From IMG/VR virus record IMGVR_UViG_3300046367_000054: 64,000 bases of DNA; one strand, 5' to 3'. Position 1 is the stretch's first letter, and every line of letters starts with the position of its first letter. The DNA is from an uncultured virus (IMG/VR IMGVR_UViG_3300046367_000054). Taxonomy: Duplodnaviria; Heunggongvirae; Uroviricota; Caudoviricetes; Crassvirales. Below, in pieces: positions 5,056-58,517 of this stretch. The notes under the pieces were generated by a model. The model was given only the letters and a program-made list of their open reading frames with translations, had not been told where the DNA came from and did not search any database. The translations under genes were made by a program, and so were the position numbers.

Positions 5056-5313
5056 TTAAATTACGACTCTTACGTCACTTAGGTTTATAATCAAATATTT
5101 ACTTCCTTCTAGTCTAAGCTCACTTGCATTTATCTTGTCAAAGTAAAGTTTATCACCTTCTTTAAGGCTAGTAACATCTTCTCCGACCATCTTTACAACT
5201 CCAAGCTTGTATCTTATATCTCTATCATTAGCTTCTGTTATAATAAGTCCAAGCTTGTTTTTAACCTCTTCTTTTATTTCAGAGATAACTATTGTTTTTC
5301 CAAATGCTCTCAT
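5056..5313 (-). CDS. groES: Co-chaperonin GroES
   Basis: 85 aa; GLII mobile loop, GVVKMVGEDV..LKEGD; coupled to groEL. Confidence 0.85.
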   Translation of the reverse strand: MRAFGKTIVISEIKEEVKNKLGLIITEANDRDIRYKLGVVKMVGEDVTSLKEGDKLYFDKINASELRLEGSKYLIINLSDVRVVI

Positions 5314-6887
5314 TATGCTCTTTTGTTTGTAACCGTTGCTTCGGTTGTTAATAATGTAGCTGATACAGATACAGCGTTCTCAATTGCGTTTCTTACAACC
5401 TTAGTTGAATCAATTACACCCATCTTGTACATATCTCCAAACTCTTCAGTCAATACGTTATATCCAAATGAGTAATCTGTTTTCAATAGTTTTGAAGCTA
5501 CCTTAGCAGAATCAACTCCAGAGTTATCTAGTATTTGTGCAAAAGGATAGTCAAGAGACTTTAAAACAGAGTACCACCCATCATAAAAACTTTGGTTTGA
5601 GTTTTTAGGGAATTGACTTATTAATAAATTTCTTAGAGCTATTCCTCCTCCAGGCAAAATACCTTCTTCTAAGGCACTTTTAACAGCGTGTATAGCATCA
5701 TCTACCCTATCCTTCTTTTCTTTCATCTCAAGCTCGCTATTGGCTCCTACGTGTACAACAGCCACACCACCACTCAATCTACTAAGTCTATCTTTATAAT
5801 GCCACAGATTCATTCTGTTCTCTGCATTTGCTATTGACTCATTAATACTTTTCAACCTTGCGTCAATATCAACTTTGTGTTTTGGTCGGTCAACGATAAG
5901 AACTGTATCCAAACTAGTAGAGATTGATTTGATTGCTTCTCCCAAATAACTTGCGTCAACTGCTGATAAATCGTTACCAGTCTCATCAGAAGCTAATACT
6001 GAACCTGTCAAAGCGCACAAGTCTTCAAGTAGCTCAAATCTTTTTATACCAATCCCCTCTGGTGCGATTACATTAACTTTAATTACGCCCTTTGCTTTAT
6101 TAACATTCAAAGCATTCATTACAGCTGTATCAACATCTGCTATGATTAAGATACTTCTTTTGTTCTTAATAGCTACTTCCAAAACACTGGTGATATCCTC
6201 AAGACTTTTAATTTCTTGGTCTGATACAAAAACCAAGGGATTCTCTAGCACAGCCTCTTGTTTCTCCTGGTTTGTAACCATGTATGGAGATGTGTACCCT
6301 TTCTTGATTTTAGTTCCATCAATAACACTTACGTAAGTATCGTTATTCAAACTCTCCTCCATAGTAACAACACCATCCTTACCAACTTTGATGTAAGCTT
6401 CTGCAATAATATTACCTAACTCTGCATCGTTATTAGCTGATATTCTAGATACACTCTTAAGAGTTTTGTTACTAACCTTCTTACTCTTCTCTTTTAATGA
6501 TTTAACAACTGTAGCACAAGCTTCCTCCATTCCTTTCTTGAATTGAGTAATATTTGTGTTTTCGTTGATAACTTCAAATGATTCCTTGATCAAAGCCTGA
6601 GTCAACACACAAGTTGTAGTAGTACCATCTCCACTATTACGTGCGCTTCTGTCTGATGCCTGTTTAATAATACTAGCACCTAGATTCTCAACTGGATCTG
6701 ATAAGTTAATAGAGTTAGCTACTGTAACACCATCTTTAGTAACGTGAGGTAATCCTCTCTCGTCTTCGATGATTACATTTCTACCAGCAGCACCAAGTGT
6801 AACCTTTACTGCATTAGCAACCGTGTTAACACCACTAATAAGTTTTTGTTTTGCCTCTTCTTTGTAGAGGATTTCTTTTTCAATCAT
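5313..6887 (-). CDS. groEL: Chaperonin GroEL
   Basis: VKVTLGAAGRNV, VTKDGVTVA, GDGTTT, EKKDRVDDA, EEGILPGGG; no GGM tail. Confidence 0.95.
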   Translation of the reverse strand: MIEKEILYKEEAKQKLISGVNTVANAVKVTLGAAGRNVIIEDERGLPHVTKDGVTVANSINLSDPVENLGASIIKQASDRSARNSGDGTTTTCVLTQALIKESFEVINENTNITQFKKGMEEACATVVKSLKEKSKKVSNKTLKSVSRISANNDAELGNIIAEAYIKVGKDGVVTMEESLNNDTYVSVIDGTKIKKGYTSPYMVTNQEKQEAVLENPLVFVSDQEIKSLEDITSVLEVAIKNKRSILIIADVDTAVMNALNVNKAKGVIKVNVIAPEGIGIKRFELLEDLCALTGSVLASDETGNDLSAVDASYLGEAIKSISTSLDTVLIVDRPKHKVDIDARLKSINESIANAENRMNLWHYKDRLSRLSGGVAVVHVGANSELEMKEKKDRVDDAIHAVKSALEEGILPGGGIALRNLLISQFPKNSNQSFYDGWYSVLKSLDYPFAQILDNSGVDSAKVASKLLKTDYSFGYNVLTEEFGDMYKMGVIDSTKVVRNAIENAVSVSATLLTTEATVTNKRA

Positions 6888-7293: not shown

Positions 7294-7362
7294 AGTTTTT
7301 GTGTTTTGATAGGCAAATATAGTGTATTTTATTTAAAACCAACAAAAGAGATAATTTTATTT

Positions 7363-8305: not shown

Positions 8306-9193
8306 ATGGCGCATGGGATGCGTCGAAACACGCACTTTATACCCTTTTTCAATTTTATAATATTCTCAATACCAAAGTAATAAGTGTTTTTGTATCTTAT
8401 CTTCTCTTTGTACTCCACAAATATACTGTAAATTATCATTACGATACAAATAAAAAATGCACCACATATGATATATCGTATATCGCAATACCAGATATGA
8501 AAACATAATCTGCAACTGGGTAGTTTAATTTTAAATGTTAGATATCAATAGATTTTGGGTTATACCCCCATTCTACGTTCAACTTCAACAAAAGAAAACG
8601 ATTCTAAATTACCCCTCCCCGTTCGATATTTCAAATTCGGTTTTGAATTTTTTACCTTTTTGCCTAATAACTTTCAACAATACCAATTTTTAACACTATA
8701 ATCATTTCACGTTTTAATTGTGCCTATTACCTTTCACGTTGTTAGGTTAACTATTATTTATTTTGTCGCACTTGGATGCAATTGGTGTTATACCTATTTT
8801 CTTTCACATACTTTAAAAACTTTATTTCGTTTGGCGCTATTGTTTAATGTTTTGGTATTGAGTACATTATTGACTCTATTAAATTGGTATTTTGTTTATT
8901 GTTTTGGCTTGTGTTTTGGTACTTTTTCGCCTACAAAATCACCGTTTTATTAGTCTACCTATACACTAGGATACTATAAAAGCAAACATTTTGTGTTAAA
9001 TTTTGCTATTTTTTTCCCTATAATATGATAAAAATTAAGCCTATTTATTGAATAATTATTAACAAAATTGTTAATTCTATTAAATTTTAATAAAAATGCG
9101 TAAAATCGTCCCCGAAATTTTTTTATTCTATTCCTTATTATTAATATAGCCCCATCAAAATAACGGCGAAAGCCATAACCAAAAATTAGCAAA

Positions 9194-16906: not shown

Positions 16907-16959
16907 TTTGCTTTTGATAATTATAAACACTAATTTTGAACTTTAAATTTAATTAAATT

Positions 16960-17505
16960 ATGGCTGTAGAAAAAACACCAAAGACAATTTCACTAGCACA
17001 GAAACTAAGTGAGATTCAGATTCGTTTCAAGGCGAACAAAAGTAGATACAATGCGTTTGCAAAGTATAACTTCAGAAGTGCAGAGGATATTCTAGAGGGT
17101 TTAAAACCTTTCAATGCTGAGTACAATGTATACTTCACAATATCAGAGATGCTAATCAATCACGATTCACCAATCATTGAGAGTGTTGCTACAATACACG
17201 ATGTAGATAGTGATGCTGTAATCAAATCATCAGCAATAGTAGGTGTAGATTTGATGCAGAAAGGTATGGCTGTACCTCAGCAGTTTGGTAGCGCATCATC
17301 TTACGCTAAGAAGTACGCACTAGGTAATCTATTACTTATTGACGACACACAAGATGCAGATGCAACTAATGACCACAAGAAACAATCTATCAGTAAAGAT
17401 AGGTTTGACAAGGCTTTAAAGTCTATTAACGAGGGTAAGTATTCTAAAGAGGCTTTGATTGGTGCATTTGAATTGACACCTGACCAACTAAAACAATTGA
17501 CATAG
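16960..17505 (+). CDS. erf: ERF-family ssDNA-annealing protein
   Basis: YNFRSAEDIL and GSASSYAKKYALGNLLLIDDTQDAD ERF signature. Confidence 0.85.
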   Translation: MAVEKTPKTISLAQKLSEIQIRFKANKSRYNAFAKYNFRSAEDILEGLKPFNAEYNVYFTISEMLINHDSPIIESVATIHDVDSDAVIKSSAIVGVDLMQKGMAVPQQFGSASSYAKKYALGNLLLIDDTQDADATNDHKKQSISKDRFDKALKSINEGKYSKEALIGAFELTPDQLKQLT

Positions 17506-17564
17506 TATGAAACAACTTGTAACATTCGTAGCGTTTTTATTAATGATGATAATAGTAGTAGTAA

Positions 17565-18236
17565 ATGGATAAACAATTTAAGATGAGATGCTCCGCACTA
17601 GGAGCTCTCTTCACTGAACCACGATCGAAGTCTGAGACCATATCAGCAACACTAAAGACACATCTAAGTAATTGGTATCTAGAGAAAACATTCGGTGTTA
17701 GAACGGATATATCTTCTAAATATACAGACAAAGGTTTGCAGTTAGAAGATGAGGCTATTAGGGCATACAACACTGTGTTCAAAACCAATCATGTCAAGAA
17801 TGACGAGTTCTTTGAGGATGATTACATTCAAGGGACACCTGACTTAATTTCTGATGACGAGGTATTAGATATAAAATGTAGCTTTTCTTTGTCTAGCTTT
17901 CCTCTATTAGAGAAAAAGATTACTAACAAGAATTATATTTGTCAGTTGCAAGGGTACATGAGATTAACTGGTAAGAAAAAAGCCAAGTTAGTATACGTAC
18001 TACTAGATACGCCTGAGGATATTATTGTTCGTGAGGCTAAGAGTATTATGTATAAAGAGAAATTGCCTGACGACTTCTTAGATGTACTTATAGAGGAAGT
18101 TAGAGAGTCTCAAACATACTCTCATATACCATTAGAGAATCGTATCAAAGTGTTTGAATTAGATAGAGATGAGGAGATGATAAATCTAATCAATGAGAAA
18201 GTAATTAAGTGTAGAGAATTTATAAGAACTATTTAG
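17565..18236 (+). CDS. YqaJ/lambda-exonuclease-like nuclease
   Basis: GxxxE, GTPD, DIKC, YxxQLQGYM motifs; next to ERF. Confidence 0.8.
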   Translation: MDKQFKMRCSALGALFTEPRSKSETISATLKTHLSNWYLEKTFGVRTDISSKYTDKGLQLEDEAIRAYNTVFKTNHVKNDEFFEDDYIQGTPDLISDDEVLDIKCSFSLSSFPLLEKKITNKNYICQLQGYMRLTGKKKAKLVYVLLDTPEDIIVREAKSIMYKEKLPDDFLDVLIEEVRESQTYSHIPLENRIKVFELDRDEEMINLINEKVIKCREFIRTI

Positions 18237-28528: not shown

Positions 28529-28895
28529 AAACAAGGACACACGGAAAAACGATAAAATAGAAAATCTTATTATCAATGCAGATTTGTCTATCAAACCTGT
28601 AACACAGCTAGAAAACATAACAGTGTTAAGAGCTGAGATTTTTAAGTATGCTGACAACAAAAATTCTACAGACTTAGTAATAGGTATTGATACAGATCTT
28701 TATCTAGATATGATGATTGATATTCAAAAACAAGATAAGAAGTCTTTTCATTTTACCACTAGTGTACAGTATTCGTATAATGAGGTAATTGAAAAATTTA
28801 AGAACAATGATAACTTGTATTTTAGTGACGGTATGTTATGTTCGATTGATGAGGATTTTAATTTAGAAATAATTAGAGAGAAATATTATGAGTAA
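28521..28895 (+). CDS. Hypothetical protein
   Basis: ORF in the operon. Confidence 0.55.
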   Translation: MIRNKDTRKNDKIENLIINADLSIKPVTQLENITVLRAEIFKYADNKNSTDLVIGIDTDLYLDMMIDIQKQDKKSFHFTTSVQYSYNEVIEKFKNNDNLYFSDGMLCSIDEDFNLEIIREKYYE

Positions 28896-29223
28896 TTTAA
28901 AGAATGGAATTGAGCTTTTAGTCACTCTTCAATTAGCTTTAGAGTTAATGGATGAGTACAAATTAAAAGGTAGAGCAAAGAATACTGCTAACATGTTTAA
29001 AGATGCGTTAGAGAGCGATATAATGCAAAACTACCATAGGGTTTATAAAGAAGATCCTGAGATGTTAACTAACTCTCTTAACTTTAAAAACCAAATGATT
29101 GAAGATATAGCATCTCTTAGTGAGGCTGATTCTATTTTACTATCAGACTTTATACATAAGTTTATAGAGAACATAGAAGAAGTTAGAGAAAAAAAGATAT
29201 TAATCTTTGATAAATTGATTTAA
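28888..29223 (+). CDS. Hypothetical protein
   Basis: ORF in the operon. Confidence 0.55.
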   Translation: MSNLKNGIELLVTLQLALELMDEYKLKGRAKNTANMFKDALESDIMQNYHRVYKEDPEMLTNSLNFKNQMIEDIASLSEADSILLSDFIHKFIENIEEVREKKILIFDKLI

Positions 29224-29228
29224 TATTT

Positions 29229-29236
29229 TACATTTG
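29229..29236 (+). promoter_or_regulatory. Bacteroidota -7 box ahead of the RNA cassette
   Basis: TACATTTG, with TTTG about 20 nt upstream. Confidence 0.6.
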
Positions 29237-29365
29237 TAATGATAAGCACTACGGAGTTTTTTAAAGGTAAAACACAACTCTGCGAATTCAAAAACCTAGA
29301 CCTTTTCGTCTAAAGTGCGTTTTAGGACAGTGCTGCCTAAATGACTACTAGGAAAGACTAGTAAT

Positions 29366-29439
29366 GGACTTATAGCTCAGTTGGTTAGAGCAGGACACTC
29401 ATAATGTCAAGGTCGTAGGTTCGAATCCTACTAGGTCCA
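29366..29439 (+). tRNA. tRNA with CAT anticodon, probably Ile2 (elongator Met not excluded)
   Basis: Acceptor GGACTTA/TAGGTCC, D-arm AGCTCAGTTGGTTAGAGC, anticodon loop CTCATAA, T-arm GTAGG-TTCGAAT-CCTAC; no encoded CCA. Confidence 0.9.
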
Positions 29440-29547
29440 CTAGGTTAAACATTGAATACCTTTGTAAATATAGATTGAGCCTAAGAAAAACGTGGCAGAT
29501 TAAATCGCTATCGCAATTTACATGAAGATACTATCAGTAATGGTAGA

Positions 29548-29637
29548 TGTGTTGTTCCCTTGAGAAAGGAATATATTAAGAGCTATCAATTAATTCTATT
29601 TAATAGAAGTGAACTTAACAACACAAATGAGTTCTCA
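29548..29637 (+). ncRNA. Three-way-junction RNA with a pseudoknot
   Basis: TGTGTTG/CAACACA stem; loop TGAGAA pairs with downstream TTCTCA. Confidence 0.55.
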
Positions 29638-29642
29638 GCAAG

Positions 29643-29747
29643 TAGTTAGTAAGAGGTCCTTACATTTAGTATAACTACGTGACCCTAATTATTATACAAG
29701 CTCCATAACTGATAACTCGGTAAGCTATAATAAAAGGGTGCTAACTA
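29643..29747 (+). ncRNA. Structured RNA domain
   Basis: TAGTTAGT/GCTAACTA closing stem; ACCCT/AGGGT and TTATTATA/TATAATAA inner stems. Confidence 0.45.
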
Positions 29748-29762
29748 AAGTAGTAGAGTAGA

Positions 29763-29832
29763 CTCTCTCCGTAGTTGTCCGACGGTTATGAGACTTGTTT
29801 AGCGGTGCAAGTATAAAGAGGCAACGAACCGC
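29763..29832 (+). ncRNA. Double-pseudoknot RNA
   Basis: Two hairpin loops (GTTGT, GCGGT) complementary to consecutive 3' segments (GCAAC, ACCGC). Confidence 0.5.
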
Positions 29833-29836
29833 AAAT

Positions 29837-29972
29837 GATCGAGTGGCGAAAGGCTAGGGATGTCCCTGGCGTGGTAGACGCGCACAGTATTAATAGACAA
29901 AGAAGTGATTTATATAGGCGTAAATATAAAGAAACAGTTATATAAATACAGGTTCGAATCCTGTCTCGGTCA
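29837..29972 (+). ncRNA. 136-nt tRNA-like RNA with inserted arms and no canonical anticodon arm
   Basis: Acceptor GATCGAG/CTCGGTC, Leu-like TGGCGAAA...GGTAGACGC D-arm, T-arm ACAGG-TTCGAAT-CCTGT. Confidence 0.7.
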
Positions 29973-29999
29973 CTATTATTAATCTAAATTAAATTAAAA

Positions 30000-30452
30000 A
30001 TGTTTGTAAAAATTAAAGAATTACCGAAAGATTTAAAAAAGAAAGCTCTTAAAAGAATGATAGAGCAAAGAGGTTTAGCAGATGCTAGTACAGTAGTAGC
30101 TGCTGCATTTGACTTTTCAAAAACAAAAGAGGGTATGGACTACTGGTCAGAAGTATGTAATGCTTATGGAGATGCTCTTACTTTAGAAAACTTTTATGAT
30201 ACGCTAGAGAGAGATGCTTCAGTGATATTTGGTATTGAAGGAATAAAAGTAAGAGAACCACAAGAAGTAAAAACAGATCCTATTGTTGAATCAGTTGTAA
30301 ACCAATTAAGAAATAGATCTGAAGTTGGTATTAAAAAATATGGTACTACACTGCAAGATAACAAATTATCTACACTAGAGTGGATTGAACACGCTAAGCA
30401 AGAGGCTATGGACTTCGTTTTGTACCTAGAAAAATTAAAAAGCACATTATAA
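30000..30452 (+). CDS. Protein with a C-terminal all-alpha NTP-pyrophosphatase-like domain
   Basis: RSEVGIKKYGTTL...EHAKQEAMDFVLYLEK. Confidence 0.55.
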   Translation: MFVKIKELPKDLKKKALKRMIEQRGLADASTVVAAAFDFSKTKEGMDYWSEVCNAYGDALTLENFYDTLERDASVIFGIEGIKVREPQEVKTDPIVESVVNQLRNRSEVGIKKYGTTLQDNKLSTLEWIEHAKQEAMDFVLYLEKLKSTL

Positions 30453-40501: not shown

Positions 40502-41008
40502 TTAACTACAGAATCCGTTAGTACTCCATTGACCAGCTCCACCTTCTACACTTCCAGTTATTGCACAGAAAGTATAACTACTAAATCTAGATGTGCTTAT
40601 TGACTTAGGTGTTCCGTTACAAGCTGTATATGTTATTAAAGCATCTCTACTTGCTATATGCGTGTAACTAGTACAAGCTTCTTCAGAAGAACACGTAACA
40701 GTTTCTGTAAGAGCAGGACAAGCTGTTCCGCCTCCAGAAGCTGGTGTTATTACCGTTCTCGTTCTTGTTTTAGATCCAGAAGAACAAATAGACCAGTCAG
40801 ACCATTCTGAAACAACACAATTCACAGGTACTGCTCCGCCACTACAATTAGCAACGTCTTGTAATTTACCAAAAACTTGCTTTCTATATAATCCATTAAA
40901 TGAATAATACCCATCAGGGGCTTTTGTTGTTAATGCTTGATTTGTATACACAGAAACAGCAGTATTAAAACTGCTGGAATCTATGTAATATAATGAGCTT
41001 GTAGCCAT
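40502..41008 (-). CDS. Small Cys-rich virion protein with one TSP1-like repeat
   Basis: CVVSEWSDWSIC...RTRTV...CP.L.E...C. Confidence 0.7.
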   Translation of the reverse strand: MATSSLYYIDSSSFNTAVSVYTNQALTTKAPDGYYSFNGLYRKQVFGKLQDVANCSGGAVPVNCVVSEWSDWSICSSGSKTRTRTVITPASGGGTACPALTETVTCSSEEACTSYTHIASRDALITYTACNGTPKSISTSRFSSYTFCAITGSVEGGAGQWSTNGFCS

Positions 41009-57702: not shown

Positions 57703-57946
57703 CTACTTCTTCTTTATCTGTACCCTCAAGTATTTTTTGTTCGCTCTCTATCTTTGATAATATATAGAATGCGTCATCTAAAGCTGTTTTTTTAGCCAAC
57801 ACAGCGTTCCTCATTTTATCAGCTGACACATCATCTATGTTATCGTCAGATATAATTTCATCAGCCAATACTTTAACTAACTCGATTACAGACTTATAAG
57901 CAGCGTCTATAATCATTTGCTTTAATTCTTGATGGTTATACAACAT
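57653..57946 (-). CDS. Putative terminase small subunit
   Basis: Helical 97-aa ORF directly upstream of terL. Confidence 0.5.
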   Translation of the reverse strand: MLYNHQELKQMIIDAAYKSVIELVKVLADEIISDDNIDDVSADKMRNAVLAKKTALDDAFYILSKIESEQKILEGTDKEEVDEIKFQSFAEKRSKGR

Positions 57947-58517
57947 AATTATTTAATTCGATTACAACGTCTCTATCGTACATTCTGTACATTTTCAGAT
58001 CATCTATCTCAAACTCATACTCGCTATTCTTGGTGAAAGCCACCATATCTCCGCTATTTAAGTTTAAATTTTTTATTTGATTTTTACTAGGATAAACAAT
58101 TATCCCAACATGTTTCTCTTCTTTGTCTACTATGTGAAGACTTTCATTCTGTATAGTAGCAATTGGTTTTACAAAACAATAGTTTAAATGTGAGTTCCAT
58201 ATACCGTTTCTTTTGTATAAATAAATCCTTTCTGGACTTAGTATATACAAGTCATCTCTAAAAAACTCTGGAGATTTAGTTTGTCTACCCTTCATATCGT
58301 GATAAGTTCTAAATACATTGTGATGTATTACAACTACGTCACCAGGTTCTACATCTCCATTATAATGATGAGGTGTCTCTATTACTACAGCTAATCTATT
58401 AACATACTTAGCAGATTCTAGAGATGTGTTTATTATAACATCTTTTCCACCTATGTTTTTAGTATTGTTGTAATTATCCCCAAGAGGAGATACTATAAAG
58501 TTATATGGAGATCTCAT
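57936..58517 (-). CDS. Putative tandem GroES-like protein
   Basis: Two halves with GroES-like patterns (AVVIETP...VEPGDVVV; FVKP...GIIVY...GDMVAF...YEFEID). Confidence 0.5.
   Translation of the reverse strand: MRSPYNFIVSPLGDNYNNTKNIGGKDVIINTSLESAKYVNRLAVVIETPHHYNGDVEPGDVVVIHHNVFRTYHDMKGRQTKSPEFFRDDLYILSPERIYLYKRNGIWNSHLNYCFVKPIATIQNESLHIVDKEEKHVGIIVYPSKNQIKNLNLNSGDMVAFTKNSEYEFEIDDLKMYRMYDRDVVIELNNYVV

What the first reader, a model, noticed from the sequence alone, without database searches (positions are those of the whole stretch)
29229..29975. Promoter-led ~730-nt cassette of back-to-back structured RNAs
Seen: after a TACATTTG box, the ORF-free interval is tiled with folds: a junction closed by GCACT/AGTGC (29246-29318), TTTAGG/CCTAAA and TACTAG-GAAAGA-CTAGTA hairpins, tRNA(CAT), a GTAA-tetraloop hairpin (29531-29546), a pseudoknot RNA, a ~105-nt domain, a double-pseudoknot RNA and an oversized tRNA mimic. 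Known: phage tRNA regions host large ncRNAs (GOLLD, ROOL) and ribozymes; I could not match these folds to any of them. Inference: a polycistronic ncRNA operon processed at the tRNA-like units, possibly an RNA-based counter-defence or translation-control system.
Basis: partly seen in the sequence, partly recalled or inferred. Interest (0 to 1): 0.8.

Follow-up and report, generated by a model that had tools for sequence, protein, structure and literature searches.

The report
Phage RNA cassette with swappable domains
This gene-free stretch of a freshwater phage is a row of separate folded RNAs around a tRNA; related phages swap both the RNAs and the small domains they carry, and what they do is still unknown.

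Summary
Behind a conserved Bacteroidota-type promoter lie a pseudoknotted RNA C (29241-29343), a hairpin, tRNA(CAU), one 302-nt scaffold RNA A (29443-29744), a double pseudoknot D and a tRNA-Leu-like carrier TL whose anticodon arm is replaced by other sequence. A has 70 distinct full-length members here, covarying stems and a copy in Cellulophaga phage phi14:2; this scan already found A on other DNA. New here: A's four variable slots reassort independently (57 of 59 allele-sharing pairs share one slot only), and the same inserts move between slots, into TL and into other carriers. The four closest phages fill this same intergenic slot with different RNA sets or an HNH gene. C and D had no earlier notes. 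Nothing but tRNA matched Rfam; GOLLD, HDV-like and RT tests were negative. Freshwater RNA libraries hold A-region contigs at depth 10^3 to 7x10^4 against 0 to 82 over the flanking genes (relatives pooled). Best reading: a recombination-shuffled polycistronic RNA cassette of stable carriers displaying variable domains. A decoy or counter-defence role is plausible but untested.

The parts
29206..29236 (+). Bacteroidota-type sigma-A promoter (-33 element 29206-29209, -7 element 29229-29236, 19-nt spacer); consensus recalled
   Evidence: 6 in the window vs 2.0 expected; kept upstream of the same slot in L556-L559 (read by eye).
29241..29343 (+). Module C, a compact multi-pseudoknot RNA: 29245-50 with 29329-34; stem 29252-56/29278-82; 29273-75 with 29315-17; terminal hairpin 29321-26/29336-41; weaker 29265-68 with 29294-97
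   Evidence: 6 other distinct copies, one more in L557. on 6 sequences: 91.7% of cells paired vs 78.2% shuffled; 23 two-sided cells vs 9.7 (0/500); the count of covarying pairs is not significant (104/500); the 29265-68 helix is only 62.5% paired in this alignment.
29342..29363 (+). Hairpin H, a short leader in front of tRNA, tmRNA or tRNA-like genes
   Evidence: z -5.15. Copies in L194, L408, L454 and L557, each a few bases before such a gene.
29366..29440 (+). tRNA with CAU anticodon, non-initiator type (paired first position); elongator Met or lysidine-Ile not distinguished; CCA end not encoded
   Evidence: A CAU tRNA with three different bodies occupies the slot in the window, L556, L557 and L558; the L557 one is atypical, was read by eye and is missed by ARAGORN.
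29443..29744 (+). Scaffold RNA A: conserved multi-junction core with GNRA hairpin (29531-46), pseudoknot (29560-66/29632-38) and four variable slots V1 29469-514, V2 29572-617, V3 29649-671, V4 29688-734
   Evidence: 70 distinct full-length members, 217-552 nt. Covariation. phi14:2 copy. Slot reassortment. High-depth contigs in RNA libraries.
29769..29832 (+). Module D, a predicted double pseudoknot (29769-72/29782-85; 29774-79/29820-25; 29793-97/29808-12; 29802-06/29828-32), always just 5' of a tRNA-like unit
   Evidence: 7 other copies, nearly invariant; one compensatory change (L453) and one G-C to G-U change, read by eye. The structure is only weakly tested.
29837..29972 (+). TL, a tRNA-Leu-like acceptor/D/T frame with no anticodon arm; hairpin inserted in the D-loop (29852-70); cargo 29881-29948
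   Evidence: 82 TL-like units of 69-189 nt in the fetched loci. Its cargo stem matches the V4 allele of A in L194. Its D-loop hairpin matches the V1 insert of L139 and shows compensatory changes in L556 and L558 (by eye).
28888..29223 (+). Upstream flanking ORF (phrog_6590, unknown function), left border of the variable slot
30000..30452 (+). Downstream flanking ORF (unknown function), right border of the slot
16960..18236 (+). Erf single-strand annealing protein and YqaJ/RecE-like exonuclease: candidate machinery for short-homology exchange (role inferred)

Best explanation
A hypervariable RNA cassette of a phage of Bacteroidota. Host RNA polymerase transcribes it from the conserved promoter as one precursor (inferred). 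Host tRNA-processing nucleases cut at the tRNA and the tRNA-like frame and release stable RNAs (inferred). A and TL are carriers: a conserved, covarying frame that displays exchangeable domains in fixed slots (shown comparatively). Whole modules and single domains are reassorted between phages (shown), most likely by recombination in the short conserved blocks through the phage Erf/YqaJ system, with HNH homing endonucleases invading the same site (mechanism inferred). The most likely purpose is to supply a tRNA(CAU) plus abundant RNA ligands or decoys for host RNA-binding proteins, such as tRNA-targeting or other RNA-sensing defences. Probability about 0.85 for the architecture and 0.35 for the decoy role.
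For: Architecture: (22 of 70 members aligned; 96.6% of cells paired vs 88.4% shuffled; 22 of 41 pairs with two-sided change vs 6.1; 0/500). Reassortment: (65 members; 59 pairs share an allele at 80% identity or more, 57 at one slot, 2 at two, none at more; given 90% at one slot the other slots have median identity 0.45). Cargo crosses carriers: (window V4 inside another carrier in L427 and L441; L205 V3 in slot V4 of L438; L405 V1 outside A in L088, L154, L187). Shared alleles keep their pairs: 36 of 45 substitutions at paired sites vs 35% expected, closing stems included. The same intergenic slot holds different content in four close phages. Abundance: and the phi14:2 passage. Recombinase genes. 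HNH ORFs inside A.
Against: No test of function. Cargo interiors without their closing stems fold no better than shuffles (median z +0.14 to -0.70 for the main slots; coding control -0.23), which also fits neutral filler. L559 has no RNA at this slot and L557 lacks A, D and TL, so the modules are dispensable. Depths are contig depths summed over all organisms sharing the conserved blocks, without strand or ends; module C sits at the level of the flanking genes. No + strand terminator-like site is found before 30997. The member set was collected with fixed sequence anchors, which inflates conservation.
Confidence: 0.55

Rival explanations
1. Selfish or neutral diversity: the frames have a housekeeping role or none, and the slots tolerate small mobile hairpins spread by recombination and HNH homing.
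For: Cargo interiors are not more folded than shuffles. HNH ORFs interrupt A or replace the cassette (L557, L559). Slot V3 is absent in 13 of 65 members.
Against: Shared alleles keep base pairs and recur at 85-100% identity in different carriers. Abundance in RNA libraries is very high.
Confidence: 0.2
2. GOLLD/ROOL-like assembly: A oligomerises through its near-invariant pseudoknot helix used between molecules, and the variable domains decorate a cage or lattice.
For: The 7-bp helix shows 1 two-sided change in 65 members while neighbouring stems covary. Its core persists when the loop is rewritten and in a shorter sister family where the partner sits in a hairpin loop. GOLLD and ROOL form cages through kissing loops, and GOLLD env-38 lies downstream of a Met-tRNA (10.1101/2024.12.08.627333, section 5 and passages).
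Against: No GOLLD match even at E 10. A is much shorter (median 316 nt). Invariance can equally mean protein recognition or catalysis, and is partly imposed by my search anchors.
Confidence: 0.12
3. One or more modules (C, D or A) are new self-cleaving ribozymes that trim tRNA ends, as theta ribozymes do.
For: C starts right after the 3' end of a tRNA-like unit in 5 of 7 other copies; D always ends a few bases before one. Both are compact and pseudoknotted. Theta ribozymes sit within 5 nt of phage tRNA 3' ends, mostly in phages of Bacteroidota (PMC10879173, passages).
Against: No Rfam ribozyme family matched at permissive thresholds. My HDV-like descriptor gave one chance solution that depends on the non-conserved D-loop insert. 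In the window, L454 and L557, C sits directly behind the promoter with no tRNA before it.
Confidence: 0.1
4. One giant ornate RNA of about 730 nt with an embedded tRNA, like some GOLLD RNAs.
For: No gaps between the units; GOLLD linkers can hold tRNAs.
Against: Modules occur alone and in other orders. No other phage record covers more than 12% of the stretch. Whole-region fold z -1.27.
Confidence: 0.03

Closest known systems
Unexplained 'long non-coding RNAs' of Cellulophaga phage phi14:2 (10.1101/2020.03.07.982082, passages read)
   Same: phi14:2 carries a full copy of A starting at KC821624 position 2911 (E 5e-6; sequence), followed by a tmRNA gene. The paper reports two intergenic regions transcribed above most genes throughout infection.
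   Different: The paper gives no structure, family or function. That A lies in its g004-g005 junction is my inference from gene order, as the paper uses another numbering and its supplements are closed.
GOLLD (RF02032) and ROOL RNAs
   Same: Large structured phage RNAs near tRNAs, abundant, of unknown function.
   Different: No covariance-model match. A is shorter, and has four independently swapped slots rather than one variable linker or 5' domain. Cage formation was not tested.
UG27 reverse-transcriptase ncRNA arrays (PMC9226505 passages; 10.64898/2026.09.22.753630 passages)
   Same: Phages of Bacteroidota; variable sequence inside a conserved fold; units gained and lost between close relatives.
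   Different: UG27 arrays are repeats of one ~150-nt fold beside an RT and two accessory genes. Here the units are unrelated folds, and RVT_1 was found in 0 of 10 carrier records, 6 of them at least 90% complete.
Theta (minimal HDV-like) ribozymes (PMC10879173)
   Same: Small pseudoknotted RNAs abutting phage tRNA 3' ends.
   Different: HDV topology is not met.
Engineered tRNA scaffolds, and T4-type PeSL gene-shuffling cassettes
   Same: An RNA of interest placed in the anticodon arm of a tRNA frame; exchange of cassettes between short conserved blocks.
   Different: TL is natural. The exchanged units here are RNA domains, not genes.

Membership tests
GOLLD (RF02032) | Match of the conserved 3' domain to the covariance model | tested here: not met
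   No hit in 29100-30100 at E up to 10; 0 matches in the nearest record G001 at E up to 10.
GOLLD/ROOL kind | Phage-borne, near tRNAs, abundant | tested here: met
   A tRNA was called in 14 and a tmRNA in 7 of 70 member loci, many with short flanks.
GOLLD/ROOL kind | RNA-only homo-oligomeric cage | not testable with these tools
   Needs cryo-EM or mass photometry.
ROOL, Flavo-1 and other Rfam families | Score at or near the gathering cut-off | tested here: not met
   Window and 40 scans of homologue loci (20, 12 and 8): only tRNA and tmRNA reached cut-offs.
HDV-like / theta ribozyme | Nested double pseudoknot P1-P2-P3-P1.1-P4 with catalytic C | tested here: not met
   Own descriptor on 29201-30000, both strands: one solution in two registers, relying on the non-conserved insert. 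The descriptor was built from recalled consensus.
HDV-like / theta ribozyme | 5' end within 5 nt of a tRNA 3' end | tested here: inconclusive
   True for C in 5 of 7 other copies but not in the window. A starts 3 nt after the annotated tRNA end in the window, but most members have no called tRNA within 60 nt.
Self-cleaving ribozymes (any) | Self-scission in vitro | not testable with these tools
   Experiment needed.
UG27 RT-ncRNA array | Adjacent RT plus two accessory genes | tested here: not met
   No RT family among the window ORFs scanned; RVT_1 in 0 of 10 records. A divergent RT could be missed.
Functional tRNA (for TL) | Anticodon arm with a 7-nt loop | tested here: not met
   Not called by ARAGORN; about 62 extra nt between D and T arms in the Rfam alignment; the interior is unrelated among 82 units.
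tmRNA | Tag ORF and tmRNA model match | tested here: not met
   None in the window; real tmRNAs lie beside A in other phages.
Group I intron (for the HNH-bearing inserts in relatives) | Catalytic core around the endonuclease ORF | tested here: not met
   Only about 55 nt before and 65 nt after the ORF in L143; no intron family matched L143.
Guide or antisense RNA array | Variable segments complementary to phage or host sequence | tested here: inconclusive
   Best match of window cargo elsewhere in the window is 13 nt. 26 of 401 genomes of a Croceivirga-centred family sample gave only scattered 23-50 nt hits, best E 3e-4. The true host is unknown.

The most novel reading that the evidence does not exclude
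Phages of Bacteroidota run a combinatorial RNA display system: several unrelated stable carriers (scaffold A, its short sister family, natural tRNA scaffolds) share a pool of small folded RNA domains. Recombination reshuffles these into libraries of protein-binding decoys or aptamers against host defences, an RNA counterpart of hypervariable anti-defence protein loci.
Probability: 0.3. Interest if true: 0.9.

Novelty: new variant of a known kind. Interest (0 to 1): 0.66.

Why it matters
Large phage RNAs near tRNAs (GOLLD, ROOL, the phi14:2 transcripts) have no known function. This cassette gives a family with a cultured carrier (phi14:2 on Cellulophaga baltica), a covariation-based structure, and natural domain-swap variants that separate frame from cargo, so function becomes directly testable. 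Domain-level shuffling of RNA parts between unrelated carriers, including natural tRNA scaffolds, did not turn up in my paper searches. If the cargo binds host proteins it would be a new class of RNA counter-defence and a source of natural RNA display scaffolds.

Tried and rejected
GOLLD with an embedded tRNA: no model match.

A T-arm pattern returned mostly ordinary tRNAs. A loose 5' pattern gave 21 true starts of A in 119 stretches. D patterns gave 3 true of 9 and 3 true of 85.

The GTDB scan with the core pattern gave 10 hits, 1 true, on a 1,958-base contig of a MAG. The pattern limited V2 length, so this is not proof of absence from cellular genomes.

The HDV-like descriptor and recalled hammerhead, twister, pistol and hairpin core words gave nothing credible. 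The sigma-70 scan was not above chance (12 vs 7.9).

Candidate 5' helices of A (29444-46 with 29637-39; 29450-53 with 29626-29) are complementary but show no two-sided change, so they are unproven.

Rows dropped: 3 of 70 members did not parse; L407 (mis-parsed) and L240 (near-duplicate) were removed; per-helix subsets are 48-65.

Low contig depth over C in four RNA runs is not evidence of silence.

Paper searches with no relevant hit. The alignments of the 10,000-candidate viral RNA catalogue (PMC10690425) could not be searched: no motif hit in the files that were read; files 1, 2, 4 and three oversized files were unread. These modules may be listed there. Further copies of the modules elsewhere in the window were not searched with module patterns.

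Full report
Setting. The window is a tailed phage with terminase, portal, GroEL/GroES, Erf and YqaJ-like recombination genes and a ThyX. Its terminase matches 91 phage records, 68 from Flavobacterium and 15 from Cellulophaga phages, so the host is probably a Bacteroidota. The finding fills the gap between ORFs ending at 29223 and starting at 30000. Rfam finds only tRNA(CAU) at 29366-29440 and a sub-threshold tRNA-like hit at 29837-29972. GOLLD, my first guess, did not match.

Promoter. A Bacteroidota-type -33/-7 pair (consensus recalled) lies at 29206-29236. It occurs 6 times in the window against 2.0 expected and, read by eye, precedes the same slot in four relatives with changed free positions. 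It puts the start near 29240, where module C begins. No + strand terminator-like site occurs before 30997, so the 3' end would come from processing at TL (inference).

Scaffold A (29443-29744). From these I parsed 104 full-length copies, 70 distinct, 217-552 nt. Five conserved blocks alternate with four variable slots; some members have further inserts and 13 of 65 lack slot V3. On an alignment of 22 of the 70, 96.6% of cells pair against 88.4% in shuffles and at most 46% when slid; 22 of 41 pairs show two-sided changes (0/500). The six nested helices covary. The pseudoknot helix is almost invariant: one two-sided change in 65. In 61 distinct stretches anchored only at the 5' end, 47 keep the exact loop word; most of the other 14 keep its core, and the rest are cut short or interrupted by an ORF. 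A shorter sister family shares the core but carries the partner strand in a hairpin loop. The only cultured phage with a significant match is phi14:2, whose paper reports two abundant unexplained intergenic RNAs (10.1101/2020.03.07.982082, passages). I took that lead from earlier notes of this scan, which had found A on other DNA, and confirmed the sequence match; the mapping to the paper's gene numbers is inferred. One of 10 GTDB hits was real.

Reassortment inside A. Slots hold 55, 60, 43 and 42 alleles among 64, 65, 51 and 60 members. Of 59 pairs that share an allele, 57 share one slot, 2 share two and none more. The window shares V1 and V3 with L436, V4 with L169, L221, L238 and L415, and V2 with none. 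Inserts also cross carriers: the window's V4 sits in a different frame in L427 and L441, V3 of L205 sits in slot V4 of L438, and V1 of L405 occurs outside A; four V2 matches link A with the sister family, and the window's TL cargo matches V4 of L194. Substitutions among shared alleles keep pairing in 36 of 45 cases against 35% expected, closing stems included. Against a strong reading: interiors without closing stems fold no better than shuffles. They match nothing longer than 13 nt elsewhere in the window and only scattered short hits in 26 of 401 genomes of a Croceivirga-centred family sample, so a guide role has no support.

Module C (29241-29343). Six other distinct copies and one in L557. 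The sample is small and related. C follows a tRNA-like unit directly in five copies and the promoter in three, the window included. Module D (29769-29832) has seven other, nearly identical copies, always just before a tRNA-like unit; its double pseudoknot rests on complementarity and one compensatory change. Neither C nor D had earlier notes or Rfam matches, and an HDV-like descriptor gave only a chance solution.

TL (29837-29972). It keeps the acceptor stem, a Leu-type D arm and the T arm, but the anticodon and variable arms are replaced. 82 such units of 69-189 nt with unrelated interiors occur in the fetched loci, which were partly selected with a T-arm word.

The slot itself varies. Nine loci encode a relative of the upstream ORF. 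In the four closest (83-99% identity), the gap before the same downstream ORF holds: another module, the same tRNA, an extra TL, A with two different slots, a further module and TL (L556); C, H, an atypical CAU tRNA and an HNH gene (L557; Pfam HNH_3); C, H, a different CAU tRNA, another module and TL (L558); only an ORF resembling that HNH gene (L559). HNH genes also interrupt A in L124, L131 and L143, and similar ORF starts do so in L418 and L428; in L131, L143 and L418 a diverged copy of the core follows the ORF, as expected for homing into a conserved site (inference).

Expression. Four freshwater metatranscriptomes from four studies hold contigs over A at mean depth about 10^3 to 7x10^4, against 0-82 over the flanking ORFs, except near A's 3' end, where three runs drop to 8-470. 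An 84-base contig identical to the window's 5' end and V1 has depth 5,663. One contig spans A, D and the 5' half of TL at depth 2,785, and another spans tRNA and A at 1,042. These are pooled contigs of relatives without strand or ends, so they show presence in RNA libraries and are compatible with high abundance; they do not rank genes. C lies at background depth.

Mechanism. Shown: separate conserved RNA modules, covarying frames, and independent exchange of modules and of domains. Inferred: one precursor, host RNase P and 3' trimming at tRNA and TL, exchange through 15-55-base conserved blocks by Erf/YqaJ, and HNH homing. For function I favour supply of tRNA(CAU) plus display of variable RNA ligands or decoys for host proteins (0.35), because high abundance, dispensability and fast swapping are the usual marks of arms-race loci. 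Neutral cargo, cage assembly and new ribozymes remain open. No RT was found in 10 carrier records, which separates this from UG27 arrays.

Verdict. Real, uncatalogued in Rfam, partly seen before by this scan (A), with new comparative evidence for domain-level shuffling and two further families. Novelty in print rests on searches, and on incomplete access to the PMC10690425 supplements. Interest 0.66.

Noticed in passing
L121-L243 (for example L218, L145, L168): A short sister family of A: same core stem and loop, variable insert, partner strand in a hairpin loop, often directly before TL units; 48 cargo-bearing copies were counted.
   Followed up: partly
L143:1077-1700, L131:1085-1900, L418, L428: HNH or NUMOD4-HNH genes inserted inside scaffold A at two sites, in three cases followed by a diverged copy of the core; no room for an intron core.
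   Followed up: partly
L427 and L441, downstream of A: A further uncatalogued carrier frame that holds the same domain as the window's slot V4.
   Followed up: no
L556:2180-2300, L517:40-165, L245: Another conserved ~125-nt module directly before tRNA(CAU), replacing C and H.
   Followed up: no
L245, L250, L523, L235, L186: A conserved ~85-nt module directly upstream of D or A.
   Followed up: no
L557:2276-2365: Atypical tRNA-like gene with a CAU anticodon loop and odd arm layout, missed by ARAGORN and Rfam.
   Followed up: no
window 7314-7346 and 8418-8450 (- strand), 16907-16938 (+): Further Bacteroidota-type promoter matches; the last sits before the Erf gene.
   Followed up: no
window 40502-41008 (-): ORF in the structural module with a thrombospondin type 1 domain match (Pfam TSP1_spondin, E 3.6e-12), unusual for a phage.
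   Followed up: no
window 5313-6887 and 57936-58517 (-): Phage-encoded GroEL and GroES-like genes at separate places.
   Followed up: no
window 29734 to 29441, run X3: One contig (depth 211) joins the V4 region back to the start of A through 19 other letters; it may be a tandem arrangement in a relative or a V4-like domain upstream of A.
   Followed up: no
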